A stretch of 64,000 nucleotides of DNA, from the NCBI GenBank assembly GCA_951406725.2, contig OX597815.1, positions 155,992,001 to 156,056,000 of the forward strand. Reading direction: 5' to 3'. Source of the stretch: Octopus vulgaris (Eukaryota). The notes beneath the pieces are model-generated. The model was not told where the DNA came from and did no database searches. It was given only the letters and a program-made list of their open reading frames with translations. This document shows positions 21,543-62,217 of the stretch, piece after piece (within the stretch, counting starts at the first letter, position 1; each line of letters opens with the position of its first letter). The position numbers were made by a program, and so were the translations under genes.

Positions 21543-21627
<85 letters not shown>

Positions 21628-21877
21628 CGTAGGAATGGCTGTGTGGTAAGTAACTTGCTTAGAAACCACATGGTTCCAGGTTCAGTCCCACATACATACA
21701 TACATACATATATATATTTCCGTCTACCAAATCCACTCACAAGGCTTCGATCGACCCAGACCTATAGTAGAAGACAATTGCCCAAGGTTCCACACATATA
21801 GGCGTAGGAATGACTGTGTGGTACGTAACTTGCTTAGAAACCACATGGTTCCAGGTTCAGTCCCATATATATATATA

Positions 21878-22024
21878 TAGGCGTAGGAATGGCTGTGTGG
21901 TAATTAACTTGCTTAGAAACCACATGGTTCCAGGTTCAGTCCCCCAGTGTGGCACCTTGGGCAAGTGTCTTCTACTATAGGTCTGGGTCGATTAAAGCCT
22001 TGTGAGTGGATTTAGTAGACGGAA

Positions 22025-22057
<33 letters not shown>

Positions 22058-25400: not shown

Positions 25401-28174
25401 GCTATTTGCTAAGTTTAAATCCCACTGAGGGATATGTAATGGTTATATGTTAGATCGATAATTTGAACCAAATTTCCGATTTAACGCGGAAGATTGGCGG
25501 AATTATTAGAGGGTCGGGCAAGATCTGTTTCAGTATCTGTTCCAGATCTTTACATTCTGAGAGCAATGCCTGTAACAACACTGCTGTCAAGTTGTATTGG
25601 TCCAAATCATTGGGCTTTCTCTTGAATACGCATCGGCGGTGTGGAGAGGGAAAACAACATCCATACATGAGCAACTGTCACTCTTTATCAAAAATCTTAC
25701 ACAGACGTGCACATGCATGTGCAGATGAACGGTTACCCTTTTCCCAGCCAATGCATTCTGTTAATACATACATACACATACAGAAAACTGAGGTGTGCCC
25801 TTGACTTTCGAGACTAGAAAAGAAGGAGTTAGATTTAGATTGAAGACTTGATTTAAATGCTTGTCATAGAATAGATTGCACTAATGGTCTCATTGGCTAG
25901 GCAGCAAAGTTAAACCGGGTGGCACATAGAGAGTACCACTCAAATTATCTACCACTAAATTATATCAGCCACCCAAAGTCTAACATGCAATTAGAAGTCA
26001 TTGACGCGAATTTAGGGTATCATAAAAGATTCAGAGTATTCATTTATGGCTAATAAGAAATACACGAGAAAAATAGAATAGAGATGACGACGTGGTTTCT
26101 GGTTCTAGAAGTAAGTCCTATGTGTCAAACATAGGAAGAAAGTTTTAAAACATACCTCATGCTTTGCGGCATACAAACTTATAGTTTCATTCCATTTGCA
26201 AAATAGAAGTATATATTCGCTTTATATGCGCGTCATCGACTTTGATACTTAACCGAATGCACACACATCTAATCGAAGGCTTTTCAGCCTTGTATAACTA
26301 CAACGTGTAATATCTTCTTTCCTTCTTTGCAAATTGTTGATTATTTGTAGATTTCTAGTCTAACAAGTGCTCAAGCAGAGGCTTTCTCAATTATTCAATT
26401 GCAGTAACATTTCTATCCTGGAGTGTAAACGATAAATTAACCCAGCCTTTATTTAATAGACTCTGTGCAATGCTAAGAACTTTTTTTTAAACACATCTAA
26501 ACATAAATCTTGTGAATAATTTCTAACTTCGAATTGCTACCATTATTGTCATTTTTCACAGCGGCTATTTGCTGAGAAAAAACATTTCCATATTTGTTAA
26601 ATTTAAAAAGTCACAAAACGTTTAAATTGTCAAATTTGAAGATTTAGATTATTTAAATGCAGGAACTCCAATATGATGCTCGCTTCAATATTATTTAGTT
26701 GCTTCAGTAAATTTTGTGTAAATATAAGAATATGATGTATTTTTATATTGAATTTGGAAATGTATTATATTACAACTGATATTTAAAACGTTTCTTCTGT
26801 ATTTGATATATATACATCTCCATTACATCATCTTAACGTAGTATCTCAGTTATTTAAGTCCATGCCTTTTATTTATTCTTTCATTTCTTTCTAATATCTC
26901 TCATTTCTTATACATTGAGTCAATCGAACAAACATTTATACTACAATGTTTTGTGTGGCCGACATTTTTTCTCATAATCAAATATTGACTTATTTATCTC
27001 TAATGTAACACAGCCTCATCAAATCTTTCCAGTAGCTGTTTTAGTGGCATTACTTAGTTGTTTGGCATAATATTATACATGATAAGATATGGCTACGATT
27101 AATAATTTCCATCCTTTCTTTTTGTTTATATCGATTTCTCTTCTTATTGAATTTTAGAAGTGTCGTAAATAGTGAATCTAATATCAGAAATTTCCATATG
27201 TATGATAGAAGTGAAAATAGAACATATTCCATATTTAAGGGCTTATTAGATTTGAACACTCGGAGCTAGTGTCTGAAATACTCGTTTTCATCGATTTCTG
27301 TTTCTATCAATATGTATTTCATATATAAGAACAGGACAAAGATTCAAAAACTGGCATTTAGGATTGTTAAAATATACAGAAAAGTTTTACTTCAGGTAAA
27401 AATATAGTTGTTCCGTTGATATTGTTCATAATAAAGCATCGATAATATAAATCAACCCTTTATTTTGTTCATTAAAAGAACAAGCTGTTAAGTCTTCGCA
27501 TTGCTTATGAATATACCCAAACCCTTCCATGATTGATTACCTCATATATCTGTGTGTCAGTTTTGATATCCGGGAATTACTTCCCTTAATAACTTTACTA
27601 CTCAGATTATGGTTTTCTTATTTATTGTCTTTTGTTTTCAAATAAACTTTATCTCTGCGTGTAAAAGCTATTTACTATAACGAATTATTTTGCTCACATG
27701 AATTTCCTATAATGGGAAATATTTCGAATGATAGTCTAAAGCTTTCAAAAGGCATATTTTTTAAAAACCTAACTATATTTCGTTACATGCACGAATATAC
27801 ATCACATTAACTGTTAGGACATCGAAATAATTATAAATTCTATTCATCATTATACTCATATTTTATGTATTCTTATATTTGAATATGTTAGGCGCCTGCA
27901 GATTATAGATGTCGAGTAATATATGGTTGAACTTTGTAGTTTTTAAAAATTGCATTTTCGCATAATTTATATTCTGAGCTGTAAGTGTTTTGAGAATAAG
28001 ACATATGCACAGATTTTATTAAAGAAAAACATATAATCATTATATACACATACAAATATATACAAGAGTATACATACAAATTTATAGACATATATAAGCA
28101 TATATACGTGTATGTATGTATATATAAATATATATATATACATCCTGTGCCTATATTATATATATTTTATCTTT

Positions 28175-28334
28175 TATCTTTTACTTGTTTCAGTCATTTG
28201 ACTGCGGCCATGCTGGAGCACCACTATTAGTCAAACAAATCAACCCCAGGGCTTATTCTGTGTAAGCTTGGTACTTATCCTATCGCTAGGTTAAAGGGAT
28301 GTAAACACACCAGCATCGGTTGCTAACGGACACA

Positions 28335-28340
<6 letters not shown>
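28175..28340 (-). mobile_element. SINE family A 3' fragment
   Basis: cttgtttcagtcatttgactgcggccatgctggagcacc. Confidence 0.8.
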
Positions 28341-28419
<79 letters not shown>

Positions 28420-28425
<6 letters not shown>

Positions 28426-28550
28426 AGAGGCTTCCAAATAGGAAAGCGTTGAGTTGGTTAATGTTTTTAATTTTCATTCCTTTCGTGAATTTATCCTTTT
28501 TTGTGTTCTAGCACAACGCTTTCCTATCTGGAAGCCTCTTATTGTATTTC
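28420..28550. repeat. Short fold-back adjacent to (TA)n
   Basis: aataagaggcttccaaataggaaagcgttg vs caacgctttcctatctggaagcctcttatt. Confidence 0.85.
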
Positions 28551-28740
28551 TATACAAAAAATATATAGTCTAATGACTAATTCGTTTTTTGTGCTAGGCC
28601 ACTGGTAATAATAATTTATTATTACCCTATTTTATTATGTTTAGATATATATATATATACAATTGCAGCGTGGGAGGTGTTTATAAGCCATTTAAGAAAC
28701 ACACAAAAGCCGTTCGATTCACTCCAACATTTAAGTTTAA

Positions 28741-28790
28741 TTTGTCAAAATATTTTCGTCGCTAAAATCCGCGACCTGTTCACTGACAAA
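28741..28790 (-). ncRNA. Mirror copy of the G3-C8 hammerhead-like fold
   Basis: Reverse complement of 33849-33898. Confidence 0.65.
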
Positions 28791-29750
28791 GTCCGTGCTG
28801 CATCTAAGAAAGTAACAGTTAGTTCGTCATATATATGTATGTACGTATGTATGTGTGTATGTATGCATACATGTGTGTATGTATGTACGTATTCATGTCC
28901 GCACATACGCCTGTGTATGCATGTATGTATGTATGTATATATGTATGTGTGTGTATAAGCACGCACATACACTCTATAAAACATAAAGTTATAAACCTGT
29001 AGCGATGGATGGATGTAGAGTGACCACTCATCACAACGCTATCAAATTTCAACTCCCTACGGCCGAGGCTAGAAAGTGAATTTATGACGCTTGCTCACAA
29101 GAACTATACCCTAAAATCTATTATCAGATTTCTATCTCTATATCACAGAACTAATGTTTTACTATTGTTCGTAAGTATGTATGTATGTGCGTATGTATGT
29201 ATGTATGTATGTATGTATGTATGTATGTATGTATGTATGTATGTACATACGTACGCATGTGCGTATGTATGTATACGCGCCCGTATGCATGTGCCCATGT
29301 ATGTGTGTGTGTACATGTACGTGCGTATGTACGTGTGTATGCCCATACGTAGGTATGTATGTATGTTTGTATTCATGTGCTACGTATGTATGTGAGTGTC
29401 TAGGAGAATGGGCAGATGTGTCCGTGAGAGTGTGTACATGTGTATGTGTATGTGAACGTATGTCCGTGTACTGGCATGTGTCCGTCCAAGTTGTGTACAT
29501 GACTGTTACTTAGCTGAAGGTTGTATACATATTTACATATATGTTTGTATAGACGCACACACATATATATATATGTGTGTGGGTGTGTGTTTGTTCCTCT
29601 CATCGTCGTCTAACCGTGAATGGGTACAACGCCTAGGTGCGACTGTTCGTATCAAACAACGTCTGCTCATACCGTTGTATATAACTGCACATACGCATTG
29701 CAACCTGTATGTAAGGACTACAGGTGAAAGGGAGAGAGAGAGAGGGGTGG

Positions 29751-31319
29751 TTATAGAATAGTCCTTCTGAATGGGATCTGGATGTTATTCCATTCGGACT
29801 TTCGGTTGAGAGTAGGTTTGTATTCTTGTATACAAACAGCTTCTGTGACCTGTCTCAACATTGCATCGGTGGGATGTGTAGATAGGATGTTCAACTTAAG
29901 CTCCCCTAAGGATCCCTTGTGGCAGTCTACAGCATGTTGGTAGAAGATGGAGTTTGGCTTCCTTTCAATGTAGTTGTCCAGGTGTTCTTTGAACCTATCA
30001 TTGATGCTTCTAGAGGTCTCACCTATGTATGACTCCGGGTTAGCCGCGCAAGCTCCCTCCTGGCACTTAATCTGGTATACAGTGCCCTTGGTTTTACAAT
30101 TTACGTGTGGATTTGTCGAACACACTGCACAATTACTCTGACAGGTGATTCTATCAAATGGATATGATCTGCATAATGCCGATTTGATAGTCCTACCTGT
30201 CTTTTCTACAACTTTAACTTTTAGGCCCGTAGTGCGCAGGACTTTCTTGAATGCCTTACTTAGCTCGTTCATAGGTGTGGCGTCAACGAACATCACTCCG
30301 TGAAATCTCCTGTTATCGTACCAAGTAACGTTTCTCATCTTTTTGTTGGTGTCCCTCTCTAACCTATTCCAGAACTTGTTGCGGTACAGGGGGCATATAC
30401 CGTTTTCGTCGTTCCCTAGAATGCGTTCGAATCTAGCTTTCGCTCCTTTGTACACCCTGACTCTATCATCTTGTGTGTATCCGGAACGTTGCATTCGGAA
30501 TATGTAGTGCTGGATGTGTTGTTGTCGTTCTTGTGGTTGGCATAGTGGTGATACATTCCTCATTACTCTAACTAAGTCTGCCACTAGGATGTTGAGTTTG
30601 GCAGTATCCGACACAGCTGAGTCACTACGGATTACTAGTGGATTAGCCATCGGTTTCTGATAGTGTGAGTGGAGTATACATGGTTTAATGGTACCATTAA
30701 CTATAGCGTCTTCCATCCATAGCTCAGTATCTAGGACGGGTAATCGTTTACTGGGGTGTCTAGAGGGGTAGTCTATGGTAAGTTTTATACTGCTGTGGAT
30801 AGAGTCAGCTATGTGTTGTATAGATGTCATCACCTGTTCTTCACTTGGTAGAGGGCCCATAACTGTGTCTGTATTACATTTCACAACAAGGTTAATGTCG
30901 TCGACGTAACGAGAGTACATAGCCAATTGGATGTTACGGTTTGCTAGGCACTGTTTAAAACGCTTGTCCCACCATACCATGAAGAGGTTAGCAACGTCAC
31001 CGGCGATCCCCACTCCAATAGCACCGCCTTTCGTTTGCTTATACAGTTTGTTGTCAAATTTAAAAATATGTGTTTTTAGCGTAAATCTCAGGCTGACACC
31101 GATGGCATGTGCGATGGTGGTTCTAATATCGTGTGCACTTGAGGGTGGGTAGTCCGGCTTTGTCCATCCCTGCCAACGCTCACAGTGAGTCTTCCTGTAA
31201 GCCGAGGTAATGGTAGGTGGTCTACCGCGTTTGTTACGGGTGGGACAAGCATATAGAAGGTTATTGCGCGACAGGTATTCATTGGTACACGTCAGGGCCA
31301 GGAAGAGCCCTAGTTCATA
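29751..31319 (-). CDS. PLE reverse transcriptase + GIY-YIG endonuclease, 5'-truncated, frame open from the palindrome axis to the stop (about 522 aa)
   Basis: YELGLFLAL...FKFDNKLYKQTKGGAIGVGIAGDVANLFM (RT motif B'), SRYVDDI (motif C), LPVLD, HYQKPM, Cys-rich linker CQSNCAVC, then GTVYQIKC...YIGETSR...RFKEH...RQVTEAVCI...LNRKSEW (GIY-YIG). Confidence 0.93.
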   Translation of the reverse strand, partial: YELGLFLALTCTNEYLSRNNLLYACPTRNKRGRPPTITSAYRKTHCERWQGWTKPDYPPSSAHDIRTTIAHAIGVSLRFTLKTHIFKFDNKLYKQTKGGAIGVGIAGDVANLFMVWWDKRFKQCLANRNIQLAMYSRYVDDINLVVKCNTDTVMGPLPSEEQVMTSIQHIADSIHSSIKLTIDYPSRHPSKRLPVLDTELWMEDAIVNGTIKPCILHSHYQKPMANPLVIRSDSAVSDTAKLNILVADLVRVMRNVSPLCQPQERQQHIQHYIFRMQRSGYTQDDRVRVYKGAKARFERILGNDENGICPLYRNKFWNRLERDTNKKMRNVTWYDNRRFHGVMFVDATPMNELSKAFKKVLRTTGLKVKVVEKTGRTIKSALCRSYPFDRITCQSNCAVCSTNPHVNCKTKGTVYQIKCQEGACAANPESYIGETSRSINDRFKEHLDNYIERKPNSIFYQHAVDCHKGSLGELKLNILSTHPTDAMLRQVTEAVCIQEYKPTLNRKSEWNNIQIPFRRTIL

Positions 31320-32888
31320 TATGAACTAGGGCTCTTCCTGGCCCTGACGTGTACCAATGAATACCTGTCGCGCAATAACCTTCTATATGCTTGTCCCACC
31401 CGTAACAAACGCGGTAGACCACCTACCATTACCTCGGCTTACAGGAAGACTCACTGTGAGCGTTGGCAGGGATGGACAAAGCCGGACTACCCACCCTCAA
31501 GTGCACACGATATTAGAACCACCATCGCACATGCCATCGGTGTCAGCCTGAGATTTACGCTAAAAACACATATTTTTAAATTTGACAACAAACTGTATAA
31601 GCAAACGAAAGGCGGTGCTATTGGAGTGGGGATCGCCGGTGACGTTGCTAACCTCTTCATGGTATGGTGGGACAAGCGTTTTAAACAGTGCCTAGCAAAC
31701 CGTAACATCCCAATTGGCTATGTACTCTCGTTACGTCGACGACATTAACCTTGTTGTGAAATGTAATACAGACACAGTTATGGGCCCTCTACCAAGTGAA
31801 GAACAGGTGATGACATCTATACAACACATAGCTGACTCTATCCACAGCAGTATAAAACTTACCATAGACTACCCCTCTAGACACCCCAGTAAACGATTAC
31901 CCGTCCTAGATACTGAGCTATGGATGGAAGACGCTATAGTTAATGGTACCATTAAACCATGTATACTCCACTCACACTATCAGAAACCGATGGCTAATCC
32001 ACTAGTAATCCGTAGTGACTCAGCTGTGTCGGATACTGCCAAACTCAACATCCTAGTGGCAGACTTAGTTAGAGTAATGAGGAATGTATCACCACTATGC
32101 CAACCACAAGAACGACAACAACACATCCAGCACTACATATTCCGAATGCAACGTTCCGGATACACACAAGATGATAGAGTCAGGGTGTACAAAGGAGCGA
32201 AAGCTAGATTCGAACGCATTCTAGGGAACGACGAAAACGGTATATGCCCCCTGTACCGCAACAAGTTCTGGAATAGGTTAGAGAGGGACACCAACAAAAA
32301 GATGAGAAACGTTACTTGGTACGATAACAGGAGATTTCACGGAGTGATGTTCGTTGACGCCACACCTATGAACGAGCTAAGTAAGGCATTCAAGAAAGTC
32401 CTGCGCACTACGGGCCTAAAAGTTAAAGTTGTAGAAAAGACAGGTAGGACTATCAAATCGGCATTATGCAGATCATATCCATTTGATAGAATCACCTGTC
32501 AGAGTAATTGTGCAGTGTGTTCGACAAATCCACACGTAAATTGTAAAACCAAGGGCACTGTATACCAGATTAAGTGCCAGGAGGGAGCTTGCGCGCTAAC
32601 CCGGAGTCATACATAGGTGAGACCTCTAGAAGCATCAATGATAGGTTCAAAGAACACCTGGACAACTACATTGAAAGGAAGCCAAACTCCATCTTCTACC
32701 AACATGCTGTAGACTGCCACAAGGGATCCTTAGGGGAGCTTAAGTTGAACATCCTATCTACACATCCCACCGATGCAATGTTGAGACAGGTCACAGAAGC
32801 TGTTTGTATACAAGAATACAAACCTACTCTCAACCGAAAGTCCGAATGGAATAACATCCAGATCCCATTCAGAAGGACTATTCTATAA
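31320..32888 (+). pseudogene. Mirror copy of the PLE RT/GIY-YIG ORF with two frameshifts
   Basis: Same protein as the left arm, with +1 C near 31710 (aacatcccaattgg vs aacatccaattgg) and -1 G near 32595 (gcgcgctaacc vs gcgcggctaacc). This gives the split ORFs 31714-32616 and 32574-32888. Confidence 0.9.
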
Positions 32889-33848
32889 CCACCCCTCTCT
32901 CTCTCTCCCTTTCACCTGTAGTCCTTACATACAGGTTGCAATGCGTATGTGCAGTTATATACAACGGTATGAGCAGACGTTGTTTGATACGAACAGTCGC
33001 ACCTAGGCGTTGTACCCATTCACGGTTAGACGACGATGAGAGGAACAAACACACACCCACACACATATATATATATGTGTGTGCGTCTATACAAACATAT
33101 ATGTAAATATGTATACAACCTTCAGCTAAGTAACAGTCATGTACACAACTTGGACGGACACATGCCAGTACACGGACATACGTTCACATACACATACACA
33201 TGTACACACTCTCACGGACACATCTGCCCATTCTCCTAGACACTCACATACATACGTAGCACATGAATACAAACATACATACATACCTACGTATGGGCAT
33301 ACACACGTACATACGCACGTACATGTACACACACACATACATGGGCACATGCATACAGGCGCGTATACATACATACGCACATGCGTACGTATGTACATAC
33401 ATACATACATACATACATACATACATACATACATACATACATACATACGCACATACATACATACTTACGAACAATAGTAAAACATTAGTTCTGTGATATA
33501 GAGATAGAAATCTGATAATAGATTTTAGGGTATAGTTCTTGTGAGCAAGCGTCATAAATTCACTTTCTAGCCTCGGCCGTAGGGAGTTGAAATTTGATAG
33601 CGTTGTGATGAGTGGTCACTCTACATCCATCCATCGCTACAGGTTTATAACTTTATGTTTTATAGAGTGTATGTGCGTGCTTATACACACACATACATAT
33701 ATACATACATACATACATGCATACACAGGCGTATGTGCGGACATGAATACGTACATACATACACACATGTATGCATACATACACACATACATACGTACAT
33801 ACATATATATGACGAACTAACTGTTACTTTCTTAGATGCAGCACGGAC

Positions 33849-33898
33849 TTTGTCAGTGAACAGGTCGCGGATTTTAGCGACGAAAATATTTTGACAAA
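33849..33898 (+). ncRNA. Minimal type-I hammerhead-like fold with variant G3-C8 core in the PLE 3' pLTR
   Basis: Stem I tttgtca/tgacaaa; core GTGAACA; extra G; stem II gtcgc/gcgac; GAA; palindromic stem III AATATT; UUU triplet. Confidence 0.65.
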
Positions 33899-34079
33899 TT
33901 AAACTTAAATGTTGGAGTGAATCGAACGGCTTTTGTGTGTTTCTTAAATGGCTTATAAACACCTCCCACGCTGCAATTGTTTTCGTTTCAGCACACGATC
34001 TCAGATCAAATTACTTGCTATGCGAGTACATCTCCGTAATATATATATATATATATACATATACGACGGGTTTCTTCCA

Positions 34080-35053
34080 GTTTCGGCTGGGGGTTTGGGT
34101 AGATTGGGGTTTGTGTGTAGGCAGAGGGTGGGGGTAGAGGTGGGGTATGTGGGGGAGGGTGGGGGATAGGATGGGGAGATGGGAAGGATAGGAAGGTGGA
34201 GTAGGGATGTGTAGGGGAGGGTGGGTTTATGAGGGGAAGGGAAGGTGAGTATGTGAGGAGAGAGAGGAGTAGAGAAGTGAGAAAGAGAATAAGAGAGGAG
34301 AGAGAAAGACAGTAAGAGAGAAGAGAGAAGAGAGAAGAGAGAAAGAGAGAAGAGAGTAAGAGAGTAAGAGGGAAGAGGGAAGGAGGGGAGAGAGAGAAAG
34401 CGAGTAAGAGAGAAGAGGGAAAGAGAGTAGGCGTGAAGGGAAGTCGCAGTGAAGATAAGTAGGAGTGAAGAGAAGTAGGAGTCGGGGCAAGACTACCACT
34501 ACGTTCTCAAAATTTCATTCACATCACAAGACCCTTTTGAATGAACAGCACATGGAATCTACGTCTCCACACTGATGACAAAATATGATCTCATATTGGA
34601 ATTTACATACTACGAACAGGAAACATTTGTACCACTTCTACACACCTCTTTCCTTGGATAATGAAACTGCATCTATAACATCTTTATACATTTTTATTTT
34701 TATTCTACATTCATCCTCCTATTTCCCTATATACTCCTTATTTGCTTCCTTTTCCAAATTAACTCCTTATATTGGATTCTAATATTTCCTTCTATTTAAC
34801 CATTTCACATCGTCTCTGACGAAAGGACATCCCTAATATCCCAGAAACAGCTGTAAAACTAACTTTCTCTTTATAAATGACCTGGAAATTCCACACCATT
34901 TTGGGTTTGTTGTCTCATTTCATTTACCTGCTCATACACGACCCACATTAGACTCCTCACTCGTATCATTATCGTACCGAGAGTTTAACTGCGGTCCTTC
35001 CATAGCACTTACATAGCGTTACCTGCCACCTTGGGTTTTCTGGATACATAAGC

Positions 35054-41179: not shown

Positions 41180-41413
41180 TAGTGACCTGATCTGAGATCG
41201 TGTGCTGGAACGAAAACAATTGCAGCGTGGAAGCTGTTTATACGCCATTTAAGAAACACACAAAAACAGTTAGATTCACTTCAACATTTAAATTTAATTT
41301 CTCAAAAATATTTTCGTCGCTTTGAGACCGCGACCTGTTCACTGACAAAATTCCGTGTGCTTTTGTGCGTTTCTTAAATAGCGTATAAACACCTTCTACT
41401 CTGCAATTGTTTT
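41180..41413 (-). mobile_element. Short PLE terminus related to the palindromic element, with short inverted arm and G3-C8 hammerhead (41298-41349)
   Basis: Homologous to 33840-34015 (gatctgagatcgtgtgctggaacgaaaacaattgcagcgtgg...ttttcgtcgc...gcgacctgttcactgacaaa). Inverted copy at about 41359-41413. Confidence 0.85.
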
Positions 41414-42387: not shown

Positions 42388-42845
42388 ATACTAAGTAATT
42401 AAGGGTTTAGCAACGATTTGCCTCACCACACACCGAATTTAGAAATAGCAGTCAAAAAATTTTGGCTATTCTTTCTACTTAAAAGGGAGATCCCAGCAAA
42501 ACCACAGCACTTAAAAAGCAAACGACGCAGGCAAAAAAGAAAGAAATGGCGACAATCATTCTATATTAAGTCACCTACGGACGTACGTTTCGGAATTAAG
42601 TCATAGCAGAGCATAAAAATTAAATAATTATGTCTTACCTAACTATTTTCCTCTTCAGCGTAGGACTCTTCAATTATAAATAATTGCGTCTCAATTATTA
42701 ATAATTGTGTATTAAATTTGAAGGCATTAGAAGACATCACGATCTTGCTTTTAAGTAGAAAGAATAGCCAAAACTTTTTGACAGCTATTTCTAAATTCGG
42801 TGTGTGGTGAGGCAAATCGTTGCTAAACCCTTAATTACTTAGTAT
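42388..42845. mobile_element. Fold-back PLE terminus: about 100-bp inverted arms enclosing a hammerhead
   Basis: Arms about 42388-42491 (aagtaattaagggtttagcaacgatttgcctcaccacacaccgaatttagaaatagc...) and about 42741-42845 (near-exact reverse complement), in TA-rich microsatellite context. Confidence 0.85.
42574..42664 (-). ncRNA. Canonical type-I hammerhead ribozyme fold
   Basis: Minus strand: cctacg CTGAAGA ggaa...(long loop)...ttcc GAAA cgtacg TC cgtagg. 6-bp stem I, palindromic stem III, GUC triplet. Confidence 0.85.
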
Positions 42846-55358: not shown

Positions 55359-55405
55359 ATTTTGGAATTTTTATATTTTTACCCTGTGTCTCGCATCACT
55401 TCTCA

Positions 55406-55461
<56 letters not shown>

Positions 55462-55711
55462 GGAGCTTCTACAGGACTAGAACTGTTTCATTCAAGAGAA
55501 ATCTTCAGGAAGCTTCCTGAAGATTTCTCTTGAATGAAACAGTTCTAGTCCTGTAGAAGCTCCTTCTATATAATAAATTAATTTTACTCTGCTATGTATT
55601 GAGTACCTTATTTACTGTGGTTAACCCCGAATCAACCCGGGACCTACATATATATATATATCGTGAGAAGTGGTGAGAGACATAGGGTAAAAATACAAAA
55701 ATTCCAAAATA
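55359..55711. repeat. Outer inverted repeat enclosing the 120-bp palindrome
   Basis: ttttggaatttttatatttttaccctgtgtctcgcatcacttctcacgata (about 55359-55410) vs tatcgtgagaagtggtgagagacatagggtaaaaatacaaaaattccaaaa (about 55659-55711). Confidence 0.8.
55453..55572. repeat. Perfect 120-bp palindrome encoding a hammerhead fold on both strands
   Basis: Axis 55512/55513 (ggaag|cttcc). Plus strand: agcttc CTGAAGA tttctcttgaat GAAA cag..ctg TA gaagct (55511-55561). Confidence 0.88.
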
Positions 55712-56694: not shown

Positions 56695-57440
56695 TTTTTT
56701 CTTCTTCTTTCAAATTTGCTTCCATTTCTTGCCAAGTGTCTTCCCGACTCCTAGGGCAAAGAAACTCATAGTATACATTGGTAGGCCATTAAACTAAACT
56801 CACTTGTTCGTTCATTTTTTTTTTAAGTTAAATTAAAATACATGTGTAGTAATAGTTCTCACATCGACAATGCTCTTCTCAATACGTGTGATGTACCAGT
56901 TAAGATAACCTTCTGAACTTCTTACAGGGATGGTAAGCCGGGGATCATTCTCATATAATTTTCGGTTCCCTTCTTGATCATTCCTAGTGCTCCTACGATC
57001 ACTGGTATTGTAACCGCCTTGAGATGCCACATTTTCTCAATATCAATGAGCAGGTCTTTATATTTTCTGAGCTTGTCAAACTCTTTCGCCGAGATATTAT
57101 GATCACAGGGGATGCTCATGTCGATCAATAAGCAAACTTTATTGTTTTGGTCTTTCAGAACAATATCCGGTTTATTGGCTTTGATTGTTCGGTCTGTATG
57201 TACTAGAAAGTCCCACAGAATCGTTACATTTTCTCCTTTAGTTACAGCTTCAGGGTGGTGATTATACCACTTGTCGGCAGTTTTGATGTTGTAATGCCGA
57301 CTTATTAGCCAGTGTAGATATTGGCCAACTCTGTCATGTCTTAATTTATACTCCACTGGTGCTAAGACTTTACATCCAGAGATTAGGTGGTCCAATGTTT
57401 CAATCATGTCGTTGCAGAATCGGCATTTTGGGTCTGCTCC
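56695..57440 (-). mobile_element. Second, divergent R4/Dong-type 3' fragment (Zn knuckle + REL endonuclease + 3' UTR)
   Basis: DPKCRFCNDMIETLDHLISGC...RHDRVG...ILWDF...NKPDIV..LIDMSIP..KLRKYKDL. Flanked on both sides by (TTA)n. Confidence 0.88.
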
Positions 57441-57455
57441 ATTATTATTATTGTT

Positions 57456-57503
<48 letters not shown>

Positions 57504-57525
57504 GTTATTATTATCATTATTATTC

Positions 57526-59660
57526 AGTAGTTTTATTTTTATAACGTGCTTTCACTTCACTACCGAGCGCAGCTCTCTGTTCCTTGGGTATGTGCTGTGA
57601 TTTGTCGTGATGCTCTGATGGTTATTGTATGGAAAGTGTTCTGCGTAGGATGTGTGCAGTGCCTAGTAGTGCAATTTTCTGTATGTTATATGTGTTTGTA
57701 AGTCCTGGTGTTTTTGTTATGTATTTGTCTGAATATTTTTTTATCATGCCTAATGCACCTACTATGATAGGGATTGTTTCTGTTTTTAGATTCCACATTC
57801 TGGTTACCTCTATTTCCAGGTCTTTGTATTTTGAAAGTTTCTCCATTTCTTTTAGAGAAACGTTGACATCTGCCGGTATTGATACATCAATTAGAAAGCA
57901 ATTTTTTACTTTATGCTCTCTGACAACTATATCTGGTCTGTTGGCCTTAATTTCTCTATCTGTGTGTATCGGCATATCCCAGAGTATGGTTGCTTTCTCG
58001 TTTTCTGTGACCTTTTCTGGTGAGTGCCTATACCATCTTTTTTCTGTTGTTATTCCATAATGTTGGCATAGCTTCCAGTGTATGTAGGTTCCAACTCTGT
58101 CATGTCTGTGAATATATTCCTTCTTAGCCAGGACTGGGCAGCTAGAGATAATATGATTTATTGTTTCTTGTCCATCTCCACATATTCAGCAGTTACTTGT
58201 TATATTTCTTTTCATTACATGTTTTTGGGAATTTCTGGTCAGGAGGCTTTGGTCTTGTGCTGCAATTAAAAATCCCTCTGTCTCTGCTTTGAGACCTGAG
58301 CTTCTCAACCATTGCTGGGATTTTTCTTTGTCTATTTCTTTTGCATTTAGTTTAGTCCAGTATTTACCATGAAGGGGCTTTTTTGCCATCGTTTTATCAT
58401 GGTTCTTTGCTGTTCTAGTTTTAGTTTGGATTTCATTTGTTTTATAGCTTTTGTTGTTTCATCATCTTCTTCTTCTTCTTCTTCTTCTTCTTCTTCTTCT
58501 TCTTCTTCTTCTTCTTCTTCTTCTTCTTCTTCATATTTGTTAGGTGGTATGATTTCTTGTTTGTATTTGTCAGCTTCCTTAAATACTGAGAACAGTTTTT
58601 TGTTTTGCTCGTGTTTTGCCGCTATTTGTATCAGTTTTCCTTCCTTCTGAAGTAGATATTTTTGCAGTGGTTATTTTATAGTAGTTTTCCAGCTGTATAA
58701 GGCCTCTACCACCTTCTATACGTTGTATATATAGTCTTTCTATGTCAGATTTTGGGTGATGCATCCTAGATCCTGTCATTATTTTTCTTATTTTCCTATC
58801 TATTTTGGTCAGTTCATTTAGTGTCCAGTTAAGGATATTGTAGCTGTAACTTATAACTGGGACAGCTAAAGTGTTAATACCTATTATCTTGTTTTTAGCA
58901 TTGAGCTCTGTTTTTAGTATTAATCTAACTCGTCTATAATATTCTTTTTTATTTCCTCTTTCATTTGTGTGTGTTGTGTCTTATCTAGTTCATGGATTCC
59001 TAAGTATTTGTAAGTTTGGCTTTGGTCTAATTCTTTTATTTCATTGGTTTTATCTAGTGTGATGTTGCTACTCTTAATTAGTTTTCCTCTTTTCAGGGTT
59101 ACTTTGGCACATTTTTCTAACCCAAATTTCATATCTATTTCTTTGGTAAATCCATGAACTGTCGTTAATAGTGTTTCCAGCTGTTTGTCATTTGCAGCGT
59201 ATAGTTTTAGGTCATCCATATATAAAAGGTGGCTGATCGTTTTGCCGTAACATTTATATCCGCATCCAGTTCTATTTGGCATATCTGATAGAGGTGACAG
59301 TGCCAAGCAGAAAAGGAGTGGAGAGAGCGTGTCTCCCTGGAATATTCCTCTTCTAATGGGGATGTCTTTGGTTTTCATGAGTCCCTCTTTTGTTTGGAGG
59401 TGTAGGACTGTTTGCCATTTATTCACAGAGTGTCCTATGAATTTTATAATTGTTATTGCTACTTTGTTAATGGCTAGTGATTCGAGGATCCATGTGTGTG
59501 TGTGTGTGGGGGGGGGTGCTATCAAACGCCTTTTTGTAGCCGATCCAGGCCATACTGAGGCCTTTCTTCTTTCTGTGGCTGTCTTTAGTTATGTCTTTAT
59601 TAATCATTAGTTGATCTTTACAGCCATATGAGCCTTTGCGGCATCGTTTCTGCTCTTCTG
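57526..59660 (-). mobile_element. 5'-truncated R4/Dong-type non-LTR retrotransposon (RT + REL endonuclease), disrupted
   Basis: YKKAFDS, RRGIFQGDTLSPLLFCLAL, HLLYMDDLKLY, FGLEKC, YKYLG, ERLYIQRIEGGRGL, ETEGFLIAAQDQ, RHDRVG, NRPDIVV..LIDVSIP..KLSKYKDL. The 3' end abuts (TAA)n. Confidence 0.9.
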
Positions 59661-61119: not shown

Positions 61120-61635
61120 TATATGGTAGCTGCCCCCTCGTTATCAAGTATGGCCATTGCACGAAGCTTAATCAATGTTGTTATTGTGCAATGCCTGTGC
61201 AAGAAGATTTTTTTTTAACGTGAGGAAAGGCTGTGCACTGAGTCAATCCCACTCACTAAGCAACAGCAGCCATAATCCGAAAAGAAGAACAAGTCAACAT
61301 CATCGGTAACCATTGAGCCGCAGGTTTTATGTCGGAGTTATCCTAGTTACCTGAGTTACCTTCTCCTAGAAGGATGCCCTAACAAAGGCTAGGTGTCCTT
61401 CACTCCCAATGGTTTAACCACGTGATCGGGTATTCAGTCCGATTATTTCTATGTCCCCGCGCATGATACAGCCTTAAGACATTTATTGGATGGCCGTTGA
61501 TTCTCAAGGGTTCCTCTGCCCCTTGACTGGTTTTGTTTTTCATCCCGCAGGGTGTCCAATAAGCACCCTCCTCATCAAGCAAGCTTGGTGGGGTTGCCGG
61601 TTTAGTCGCCGACAACCCGACCATGCAACAGGTCA
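61120..61635. mobile_element. Interspersed repeat, possibly RTE-related
   Basis: GC-richer non-coding block, part of which recurs inverted at 62050-62217. Family assignment tentative. Confidence 0.45.
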
Positions 61636-62049: not shown

Positions 62050-62217
62050 CAACCCCACCAAGCTTGCTTGATGAGGAGGGTGCTTATTGGACACCCTGCG
62101 GGATGAAAAACAAAACCAGTCAAAGGGCGGAGGAACTCTTGAGAGTCAACGGCCATCCAATAAATGTCTTAAGGCTGTATCATGCGCGGGGACATAGAAA
62201 TAATCGGACTGAATACC
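62050..62217. repeat. Inverted copy of 61429-61597
   Basis: About 168 bp reverse complement with a few mismatches. Confidence 0.9.

What the first reader, a model, noticed from the sequence alone, without database searches (positions are those of the whole stretch)
28659..33980. Spacer-less 5.3-kb palindrome built from a young Penelope-like retroelement
Seen: the two 2.66-kb arms differ, as far as I could see, at only three sites (+1 C near 31710, -1 G near 32595, a substitution near 33357). The RT-GIY-YIG frame is open right up to the axis, so both copies are truncated at the same nucleotide. Known: PLEs often insert with an inverted 5' segment, while long perfect palindromes are generally unstable. 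Inference: a single insertion in which the truncated cDNA folded back or self-primed and was copied over nearly its full length. Read-through transcription would give about 2.6 kb of near-perfect dsRNA, a substrate for siRNA or ADAR pathways.
Basis: partly seen in the sequence, partly recalled or inferred. Interest (0 to 1): 0.85.

Follow-up and report, generated by a model that had tools for sequence, protein, structure and literature searches.

The report
Penelope retroelement inserted as perfect palindrome
This is a broken, likely very recent copy of a Penelope-like jumping gene that sits in the assembly as a 5.3-kb mirror-image pair, likely because its DNA copy folded back on itself during insertion; that habit is already known for these elements, but the family also carries an unusually long, telomerase-sized insert in its reverse transcriptase and may be an unnamed lineage.

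Summary
Observation confirmed: 28659-33980 is a zero-spacer palindrome, axis 31319|31320, three differences. It is two 5'-truncated copies of a Penelope-like element (PLE), joined head-to-head, 3' ends outward in (TA)n, with a ~58-nt tail on one arm only. That anatomy, and self-priming as its cause, are in print (PMC8557442, PMC3846280). For a real insertion: the flanks are two halves of one SINE-like repeat; a second family copy and a 120-bp zero-spacer palindrome in the window share the anatomy; contigs of two other runs hold another head-to-head junction with a 4-nt overlap, and the natural template has a self-complementary TATA on the axis. The axis itself was not seen in other runs (inconclusive), so a fold-back read at the centre stays possible (~20%). 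Both right-arm frameshifts are likely consensus errors. The dsRNA claim is untested. Side finding: relatives pair a C-terminal, Nematis-type endonuclease with a ~70-residue insert at the telomerase IFD position (123-159 aa between RT motifs A and B in 84 of 85 measurable), which the eight named clades are not described with.

The parts
28659..31319 (-). Left (inverted) arm: 5'-truncated PLE copy without tail
   Evidence: outer end at CAATTG (28660-28665) next to (TA)n
29751..31319 (-). Intact partial ORF (P0001, 522 aa): end of the fingers insert, RT motifs B-E (YVDD at aa 138), thumb, CX3CxxC-x7-C linker, GIY-YIG with CCHH; lacks RT motifs up to A, so it is predicted to be catalytically dead
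   Evidence: starts at about aa 357-367 of 800-890-aa relatives
31318..31321 (.). Axis: natural self-complementary TATA of the template; the two arms overlap by these 4 nt
   Evidence: X9 loose end at 31318 and X2 record 9 aligned from 31318; reading frame checked by hand against relatives
31320..33980 (+). Right (direct) arm: same truncated copy, two frameshifts (31709, 32595) that are likely consensus errors
   Evidence: (table 4)
33849..33904 (+). Minimal type-I hammerhead-like motif in the 3' pseudo-LTR, G3/C8 swapped core, extra base before stem II, palindromic helix III (mirror copy at about 28735-28790)
   Evidence: no Rfam hit; activity untested
33981..34038 (+). One-sided tail, about 58 nt
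   Evidence: its first 28 nt recur in the second family copy
28645..28659 (.). (TA)n target, left side
34039..34057 (.). (TA)n target, right side
28165..28422 (+). 5' half of a SINE-like repeat up to its internal (CA)n(TA)n: left host flank
34060..34084 (+). Head of the 3' half of the same SINE-like repeat, same strand: right host flank
   Evidence: 23 of 25 nt
28422..28644 (+). Older insert in the same microsatellite: 37-nt inverted arms, 48-nt spacer, 101-nt extension
   Evidence: family not identified
41188..41413 (-). Second, older copy of the same family (89%): 55-nt inverted piece joined head-to-head (2-nt overlap) to a 173-nt 3' end with tail
55453..55647 (+). Second zero-spacer palindrome (60-nt arms) with an 80-nt one-sided extension between (TA)n runs; different sequence family, PLE origin inferred from anatomy only

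Best explanation
This is likely one real, recent insertion of a Penelope-like retroelement into a (TA)n run, in which the newly made cDNA likely folded back at a natural 4-nt self-complementary word and was copied a second time, giving two head-to-head arms with no spacer. Steps: (1, inferred from PMC11167929) the GIY-YIG endonuclease cuts the (TA)n inside a SINE-like repeat and the RT starts at the tail end of the RNA; (2, shown as anatomy) synthesis stops 2.7 kb in, inside the RT fingers region, at TATA; (3, inferred) the cDNA 3' end primes on itself, with TATA as the hairpin loop, and is extended back over almost the whole cDNA; (4, inferred) the fold-back strand is resolved just short of the tail, at the CAATTG boundary, and joined to the other target end. 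Other copies of the family show the same reaction with unequal arms. The copy is predicted to be dead (no RT motif A). Function: none for the host is indicated; it is a transposition by-product.
For: Layout equals the published PLE layout: inverted 5'-truncated copy, one-sided tail, (TA)n target (PMC8557442). Flanks colinear: the 25-nt head of the SINE 3' half occurs 4 times in the window; 3 follow their own 5' half, the fourth (34060) pairs with the 5' half at 28165-28422 on the same strand across the palindrome. A simple fold-back read would mirror the left flank, not add a tail and a new flank. Same anatomy twice more in the window, both too short to be long-read artefacts: 41188-41413 (inverted arm ends within 3 nt of the same boundary) and a zero-spacer 120-bp palindrome at 55453-55572. 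Independent contigs: runs X1 and X5 (2 of 4 laid; organisms A and B) each hold one contig joining antisense 32934-32958 to sense 31350 with a TGTA overlap, and X1 has an opposite-strand joint 31952/32120. The natural template carries TATA centred on the axis; 4-nt self-complementary words cover 5.5% of ORF positions. Both arms share the window's base at 40 of 40 listed variant sites, 14 of them sites where the majority differs in at least 2 of 3 DNA runs, so both came from one template.
Against: The axis has no independent support: no joint at 31319|31320 is listed in 4 contig sets (165 loose ends and 1516 pieces not shown; contigs drop rare variants, so this is inconclusive). If the two indels are errors the arms are identical at 2660 of 2661 sites, which a fold-back read also gives; such reads make up about 0.6% of ONT genomic reads (PMC12870357). 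The SINE match on the right is only 25 nt, and orphan SINE halves are not rare in the window. Fold-back alone does not explain the near-fixed outer end of the inverted arm; an extra cut or a second start site is needed. The TATA coincidence is modest (p about 0.055). Long perfect palindromes are generally unstable (own knowledge).
Confidence: 0.5

Rival explanations
1. Real insertion by dual priming: a PLE dimer cuts both target strands, each end primes its own cDNA from one of the two RT start sites (with and without tail), and the two cDNA 3' ends anneal through a short overlap, here the self-complementary TATA.
For: In vitro a Poseidon protein cuts and extends both strands, is predicted to be a dimer, and starts at two sites that bracket the tail (PMC11167929). 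This explains the one-sided tail and the near-fixed outer end, and fits the unequal-arm junctions with 4- and 2-nt overlaps.
Against: Two independent cDNAs should rarely join at the same position (the arm holds 30 TATA words), yet two zero-spacer palindromes lie in one 64-kb window. Both arms share 40 of 40 listed variants in a varied family, which needs two RNAs from one source.
Confidence: 0.2
2. The insertion and both outer junctions are real, but the centre is an artefact: a fold-back long read closed the interior at 31319|31320 and the true locus has longer or unequal arms or a spacer.
For: Axis not listed in any of 4 contig sets (inconclusive); both right-arm indels sit within 4 nt of sites where the family differs (31713; 32595), chance about 0.008 if about 16 majority sites count, 0.11 if all 59 do, which shows read mixing in the consensus; fold-back reads with no spacer are documented (PMC12870357).
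Against: The axis falls on a natural TATA; a natural zero-spacer palindrome of the same layout lies 24 kb away; the consensus would have to follow a rare read.
Confidence: 0.17
3. Real insertion by RNA self-priming on an antisense transcript, as proposed for rotifer Penelope elements.
For: Proposed in PMC3846280 for head-to-head repeats with palindromes at the junction.
Against: No antisense promoter or transcript was shown here; in vitro priming used cut DNA and sense RNA (PMC11167929); cDNA fold-back gives head-to-head arms from a sense template without it (inference).
Confidence: 0.08
4. Full misassembly: a fold-back read joined two different loci through two family copies.
For: High-copy, near-identical family; such structures trouble assemblers (PMC8557442).
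Against: Flanks are the two halves of one SINE-like repeat in the right order and strand; tail asymmetry is the biological pattern.
Confidence: 0.05

Closest known systems
Canonical EN+ Penelope-like element insertions with an inverted 5'-truncated copy and a 30-40-bp tail (PMC8557442, Fig. 2 legend and text)
   Same: Head-to-head inverted copy, tail on one end only, (TA)n target, hammerhead in the pseudo-LTR, C-terminal GIY-YIG with CCHH.
   Different: Arms of equal length (2.66 kb) with no spacer; tail about 58 nt.
Adineta vaga Penelope families Pen2/Pen3a (PMC3846280)
   Same: Palindromes at the inverted junction, arms that overlap by a few bases, self-priming proposed; Pen3/Pen5a also carry a short insert between RT motifs 3 and 4.
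   Different: Those palindromes are 18-38 bp at the pseudo-LTR; here the turn is mid-ORF and the palindrome is 5.3 kb. Those elements lack the Cys linker and group with Penelope/Poseidon.
Nematis clade of PLEs
   Same: C-terminal EN with the short linker CX2-5CxxC-x7-C (7 residues in the three Nematis rows of Fig. S2, counted by hand; 7 in P0001 and in 40 of 46 relatives).
   Different: RT motif A to B distance about 129 aa against about 60 in the C. remanei row; DKS instead of DKG.
Naiad and Chlamys PLEs, and telomerase RT (IFD-bearing RTs)
   Same: Long insert between RT motifs A and B; (TA)n targets (Naiad); telomerases are the top 7 Foldseek hits for the model.
   Different: Endonuclease is C-terminal and a hammerhead-like motif is present; insert is longer than in Naiad (about 84 aa A-to-B) and near human TERT (115 aa). 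Homology of the insert to TERT IFD was not shown.
Fold-back artefacts of long reads (PMC12870357)
   Same: Near-perfect zero-spacer mirror image.
   Different: An artefact read mirrors the flank too; here the flanks differ, are colinear, and one arm has a tail.

Membership tests
Penelope-like elements, EN+ | Telomerase-like RT | tested here: met
   Model of relative P0028 (pLDDT 90.6): ranks 1-7 in Foldseek are telomerases; VIA Z 10.7, rmsd 3.7, 395 aligned to human TERT. YVDD in P0001.
Penelope-like elements, EN+ | GIY-YIG endonuclease with CCHH motif in the same ORF | tested here: met
   Motifs at aa 414-467 of P0001; model matches I-TevI catalytic domain, Z 11.0, rmsd 2.1, 88 aligned; Pfam GIY-YIG in P0028 only at E 5.7e-4, below cut-off; P0001 has no Pfam hit.
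Penelope-like elements, EN+ | Pseudo-LTR with hammerhead motif | tested here: met
   Own descriptor finds the motif only in the two arms; 0-1 cores in each of 10 shuffles; fold z -3.27 on 64 nt but -1.33 on 81 nt; no Rfam hammerhead hit. Non-canonical G3/C8 core; cleavage untested.
Penelope-like elements, EN+ | Inverted 5'-truncated copy and one-sided tail | tested here: met
Penelope-like elements, EN+ | Target-site duplication | tested here: inconclusive
   Both ends lie in (TA)n, which hides a duplication.
Nematis clade | Short CX2-5CxxC linker before a C-terminal EN | tested here: met
Nematis clade | No insert between RT motifs A and B | tested here: not met
   127-130 aa in 38 of 39 measurable among 121 proteins (one at 88), 123-159 aa in 46 of 46 measurable among 143, against about 57-60 in Penelope, Nematis and Neptune rows (hand count).
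Nematis clade | Placement in the RT tree | not testable with these tools
   No reference clade sequences were available as tool sequences; no tree was built.
Neptune group | Long Cys linker (about 25 residues between CxxC and the next Cys) | tested here: not met
   7 residues here against 25 in Neptune-1_Ac (hand count).
Penelope/Poseidon clade | No Cys linker between RT and EN | tested here: not met
   CQSNCAVC at aa 393-400, invariant Cys in 20 aligned proteins.
Naiad/Chlamys | N-terminal endonuclease | tested here: not met
   EN is C-terminal in P0001, P0028 and 6 of 6 distant relatives where both parts were matched.
Hydra clade | CCHH absent, CxCX5C linker, DKT motif, no IFD | tested here: not met
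   CCHH present; DKS in 21 of 23 relatives with the motif; definition from PMC8557442 section 11.

The most novel reading that the evidence does not exclude
The element belongs to an unnamed, deep lineage of Penelope-like elements (relatives down to about 30% identity in octopus, sea cucumber and jellyfish records) that joins a C-terminal Nematis-type endonuclease to an RT with a telomerase-sized insertion in the fingers; and its young insertions record cDNA fold-back at 2-4-nt microhomologies, up to real multi-kilobase perfect palindromes. A census of these junctions in one genome would then decide between fold-back and dual priming, the open question of how PLE inverted copies form.
Probability: 0.35. 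Interest if true: 0.62.

Novelty: new variant of a known kind. Interest (0 to 1): 0.4.

Why it matters
The palindrome is an extreme case of a known PLE by-product, so it does not surprise a specialist. It is useful because the family is young and abundant and its junctions keep base-level traces (overlaps of 2-4 nt, a near-fixed tail boundary), which makes the mechanism of PLE inverted-copy formation testable; PMC8557442 names that mechanism as unresolved. If the lineage with a C-terminal endonuclease and a long fingers insert is unnamed, it bears on whether the telomerase IFD was inherited or gained several times among PLEs. If the locus is real and transcribed it would be a ready source of long dsRNA, but nothing here shows that.

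Tried and rejected
Own genome not held, so no census of copies or axes. Run search: no RNA holder listed; all 24 runs are contigs, no raw or long reads. X9 is only guessed to be RNA; it covers 30 of 30 bins, which does not show transcription. No joint at the axis listed: inconclusive. Rfam scan of the 3' region gave only microsatellite-driven hits. A hammerhead-like motif seen by eye in the 55453 palindrome was not found by my descriptor and folds no better than shuffles (z -0.09), so it is not counted. Pfam on 38 of the window's other long open frames (repeat-derived and arm frames left out) gave three weak hits below cut-off and no host gene; short exons would be missed, so read-through is neither supported nor excluded. 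Sequence search of solved structures found only weak RT hits. Three look-ups of earlier findings returned nothing. Motif searches in the supplement of PMC8557442 found no sequence of this family (long runs are cut, and reference clades appear only as figure excerpts). Ten paper searches showed no paper on kilobase PLE palindromes or on a C-terminal-EN clade with a long fingers insert; Arkhipova 2006, Evgen'ev and Arkhipova 2005, Repbase and Dfam could not be consulted, so this is no proof of absence. Passages of PMC6431247, PMC12910113, PMC9977147 and PMC12602865 held nothing relevant. Rejected: DNA transposon with long TIRs (arms are the whole element, RT-EN coding, one-sided tail); LINE-type twin priming (recalled: it inverts non-overlapping parts, here the arms duplicate each other); two independent insertions (arms share 40 of 40 variants).
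Full report
Observation. The palindrome is there as described: one inverted match, 28659-33980, 99.89%, zero spacer at 31319|31320, three differences: +C at 31709 and -G at 32595 in the right arm, and G/A at 29282/33357. The coding frames run outward from the axis, so the arms are joined by their truncated 5' ends. The left arm holds an intact 522-aa frame (P0001); the right arm is split by the two indels. The left arm ends at CAATTG and (TA)n; the right arm goes on for about 58 nt before its (TA)n.

What it is. P0001 has YVDD, a CX3CxxC linker and a GIY-YIG with CCHH. It has 139 relatives at E <= 0.001, the named ones from Octopus vulgaris (55%), a sea cucumber and a jellyfish. It begins at about residue 357-367 of full-length relatives, past RT motif A, so the copy is predicted to be dead. 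A model of relative P0028 (pLDDT 90.6) matches telomerase RTs best (ranks 1-7; Z 10.7, rmsd 3.7, 395 aligned) and I-TevI at its C-terminus (Z 11.0, rmsd 2.1, 88 aligned). The 3' region folds as a minimal hammerhead with a G3/C8 swapped core; a C3G/G8C double change partly restores cleavage in another PLE ribozyme (PMC11167929). This is a Penelope-like element. That the host is an octopus is my recall of the look of its repeats plus the best named hit; no call establishes it.

Is the locus real? Four lines say yes. First, the flanks are halves of one SINE-like repeat: the 5' half up to its internal microsatellite lies at 28165-28422, and the 25-nt head of the 3' half at 34060, same strand; the other 3 of 4 such heads in the window follow their own 5' halves directly. 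The match is short and orphan halves exist elsewhere, so this is good but not final. Second, the window repeats the layout: an 89%-alike family copy at 41188-41413 has a 55-nt inverted piece ending within 3 nt of the same boundary, a 2-nt overlap and a tail, and an unrelated 120-bp zero-spacer palindrome with a one-sided 80-nt extension sits between (TA)n runs at 55453-55647. Third, contigs of 4 of the 24 listed runs were laid on 31300-32890: X1 and X5 each hold one contig in which antisense 32934-32958 joins sense 31350 over a shared TGTA, and X1 has one opposite-strand joint at 31952/32120 whose orientation is not given. So the family makes head-to-head junctions in other data sets. Fourth, the natural sequence upstream of the truncation (one X9 contig; X2 record 9) agrees with the window from 31318, which puts a natural TATA on the axis; read by hand in frame it matches the relatives. 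Such words cover 5.5% of ORF positions.

Against. No joint at the axis is listed in any of the four runs; 165 loose ends and 1516 pieces were not shown and contigs drop rare variants, so this is inconclusive. The extra C is listed as left out in 4 of 4 runs and the missing G as put in in 3 of 4; both indels lie within 4 nt of sites where the family differs from the window (chance 0.008 to 0.11), so they are likely consensus errors. The arms may then differ at 1 of 2661 sites, which fits a very young insertion (0.05-0.16 My at the rate quoted in PMC13282606 for another octopus; rough) and equally a fold-back read at the centre. Such reads are about 0.55-0.6% of ONT genomic reads and nearly absent from HiFi (PMC12870357). 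I put the zero-spacer centre at about 80% real.

Mechanism. Of 40 listed variant sites (19 more not shown) 28 are synonymous against 22% expected, so the family descends from active copies; both arms carry the window's base at all 40, including 14 where the majority differs in at least 2 of 3 DNA runs. Both arms therefore come from one template. The simplest route is target-primed cDNA synthesis from the tail end, a stop at TATA, fold-back of the cDNA 3' end, and copying back to the tail boundary. With a distant 4-nt match the same reaction gives the unequal-arm junction at 31350/32934. These steps are inferred. The main rival is dual priming from the two RT start sites shown in vitro (PMC11167929), which explains the tail better and the symmetry worse.

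Comparison with what is known. PMC8557442 describes an inverted 5'-truncated copy next to the 5' end, a 30-40-bp tail on one side and (TA)n targets as typical. PMC3846280 reports palindromes at the inverted, mostly head-to-head junction and reads them as self-priming, on an antisense template. No host gene was found in 38 long frames and no RNA holder is on record, so the dsRNA step is untested.

Side finding. Between RT motifs A and B the relatives have 127-130 aa in 38 of 39 measurable proteins of 121 and 123-159 aa in 46 of 46 measurable of 143 more distant ones (one protein may occur in both sets only if listed twice, ids do not overlap). Hand counts from Fig. S1 of PMC8557442 give about 57-60 for Penelope, Nematis and Neptune, about 84 for a Naiad and 115 for human TERT. 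That paper says canonical C-terminal-EN PLEs lack the IFD, and a 2026 preprint still lists eight clades. This lineage has a C-terminal EN, the 7-residue Nematis-type linker (40 of 46), DKS for DKG, and the long insert. It fails one defining feature of each named clade that I could test; no tree was possible, and Repbase and Dfam were not seen, so it may already be catalogued.

Papers seen. PMC3846280: parts 1-4 of 5. PMC8557442: passages, section 11, supplement part 54 and supplement searches; figures not seen. PMC11167929: parts 1-2 of 4. PMC4209133: parts 1-2 of 4. 10.64898/2026.07.22.740005: part 1 of 5 and passages; its supplements are closed and could bear on the clade question. PMC13282606 and PMC12870357: passages. 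Arkhipova 2006 was not seen.

Verdict. Real in the sequence, likely real in the genome, a striking but explained by-product of PLE insertion; the possible unnamed lineage lifts it somewhat. Novelty: new variant of a known kind. Interest 0.4.

Noticed in passing
window 55453-55647: Zero-spacer 120-bp palindrome with an 80-nt one-sided extension between (TA)n runs, itself inside a short inverted repeat (about 55400-55408 and 55660-55680); a hammerhead-like motif by eye only.
   Followed up: partly
window 41188-41413: Older miniature copy of the same family with inverted piece, 2-nt overlap and tail; its arms have diverged from each other.
   Followed up: yes
window 28422-28644: Another insert with 37-nt inverted arms and a 101-nt extension in the same microsatellite as the big element: nested use of one (TA)n target.
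   Followed up: partly
proteins P0002-P0287: Large, diverse PLE lineage with a C-terminal endonuclease, Nematis-type linker, DKS motif and a ~70-aa insert at the IFD position; 322 clusters at E <= 1e-30 for P0028.
   Followed up: partly
window 33849-33904: Hammerhead-like motif with a natural G3/C8 core swap, kept in the 41188 copy.
   Followed up: partly
window 61429-61596 and 62050-62217: 168-nt inverted repeats, 98% complementary, 453 nt apart; MITE-like or another inverted insertion.
   Followed up: no
window 42388-42492 and 42741-42845: 105-nt inverted repeats, 96% complementary, 248 nt apart.
   Followed up: no
window 21611-22052: SINE-like copy whose 3' part is locally duplicated in direct and inverted pieces.
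   Followed up: no
window 31940-31955: Natural 16-nt palindrome inside the ORF, next to the opposite-strand joint at 31952 seen in run X1; several family variants fall in it.
   Followed up: no
run X2 record 10 and X1 loose end at 31658: Short loose ends resembling the antisense of about 31543-31556 in a diverged subfamily; possibly further short-spacer inversions.
   Followed up: no
window 56922-57551: Weak zf-RVT match (E 0.006, below cut-off), likely a LINE remnant.
   Followed up: no
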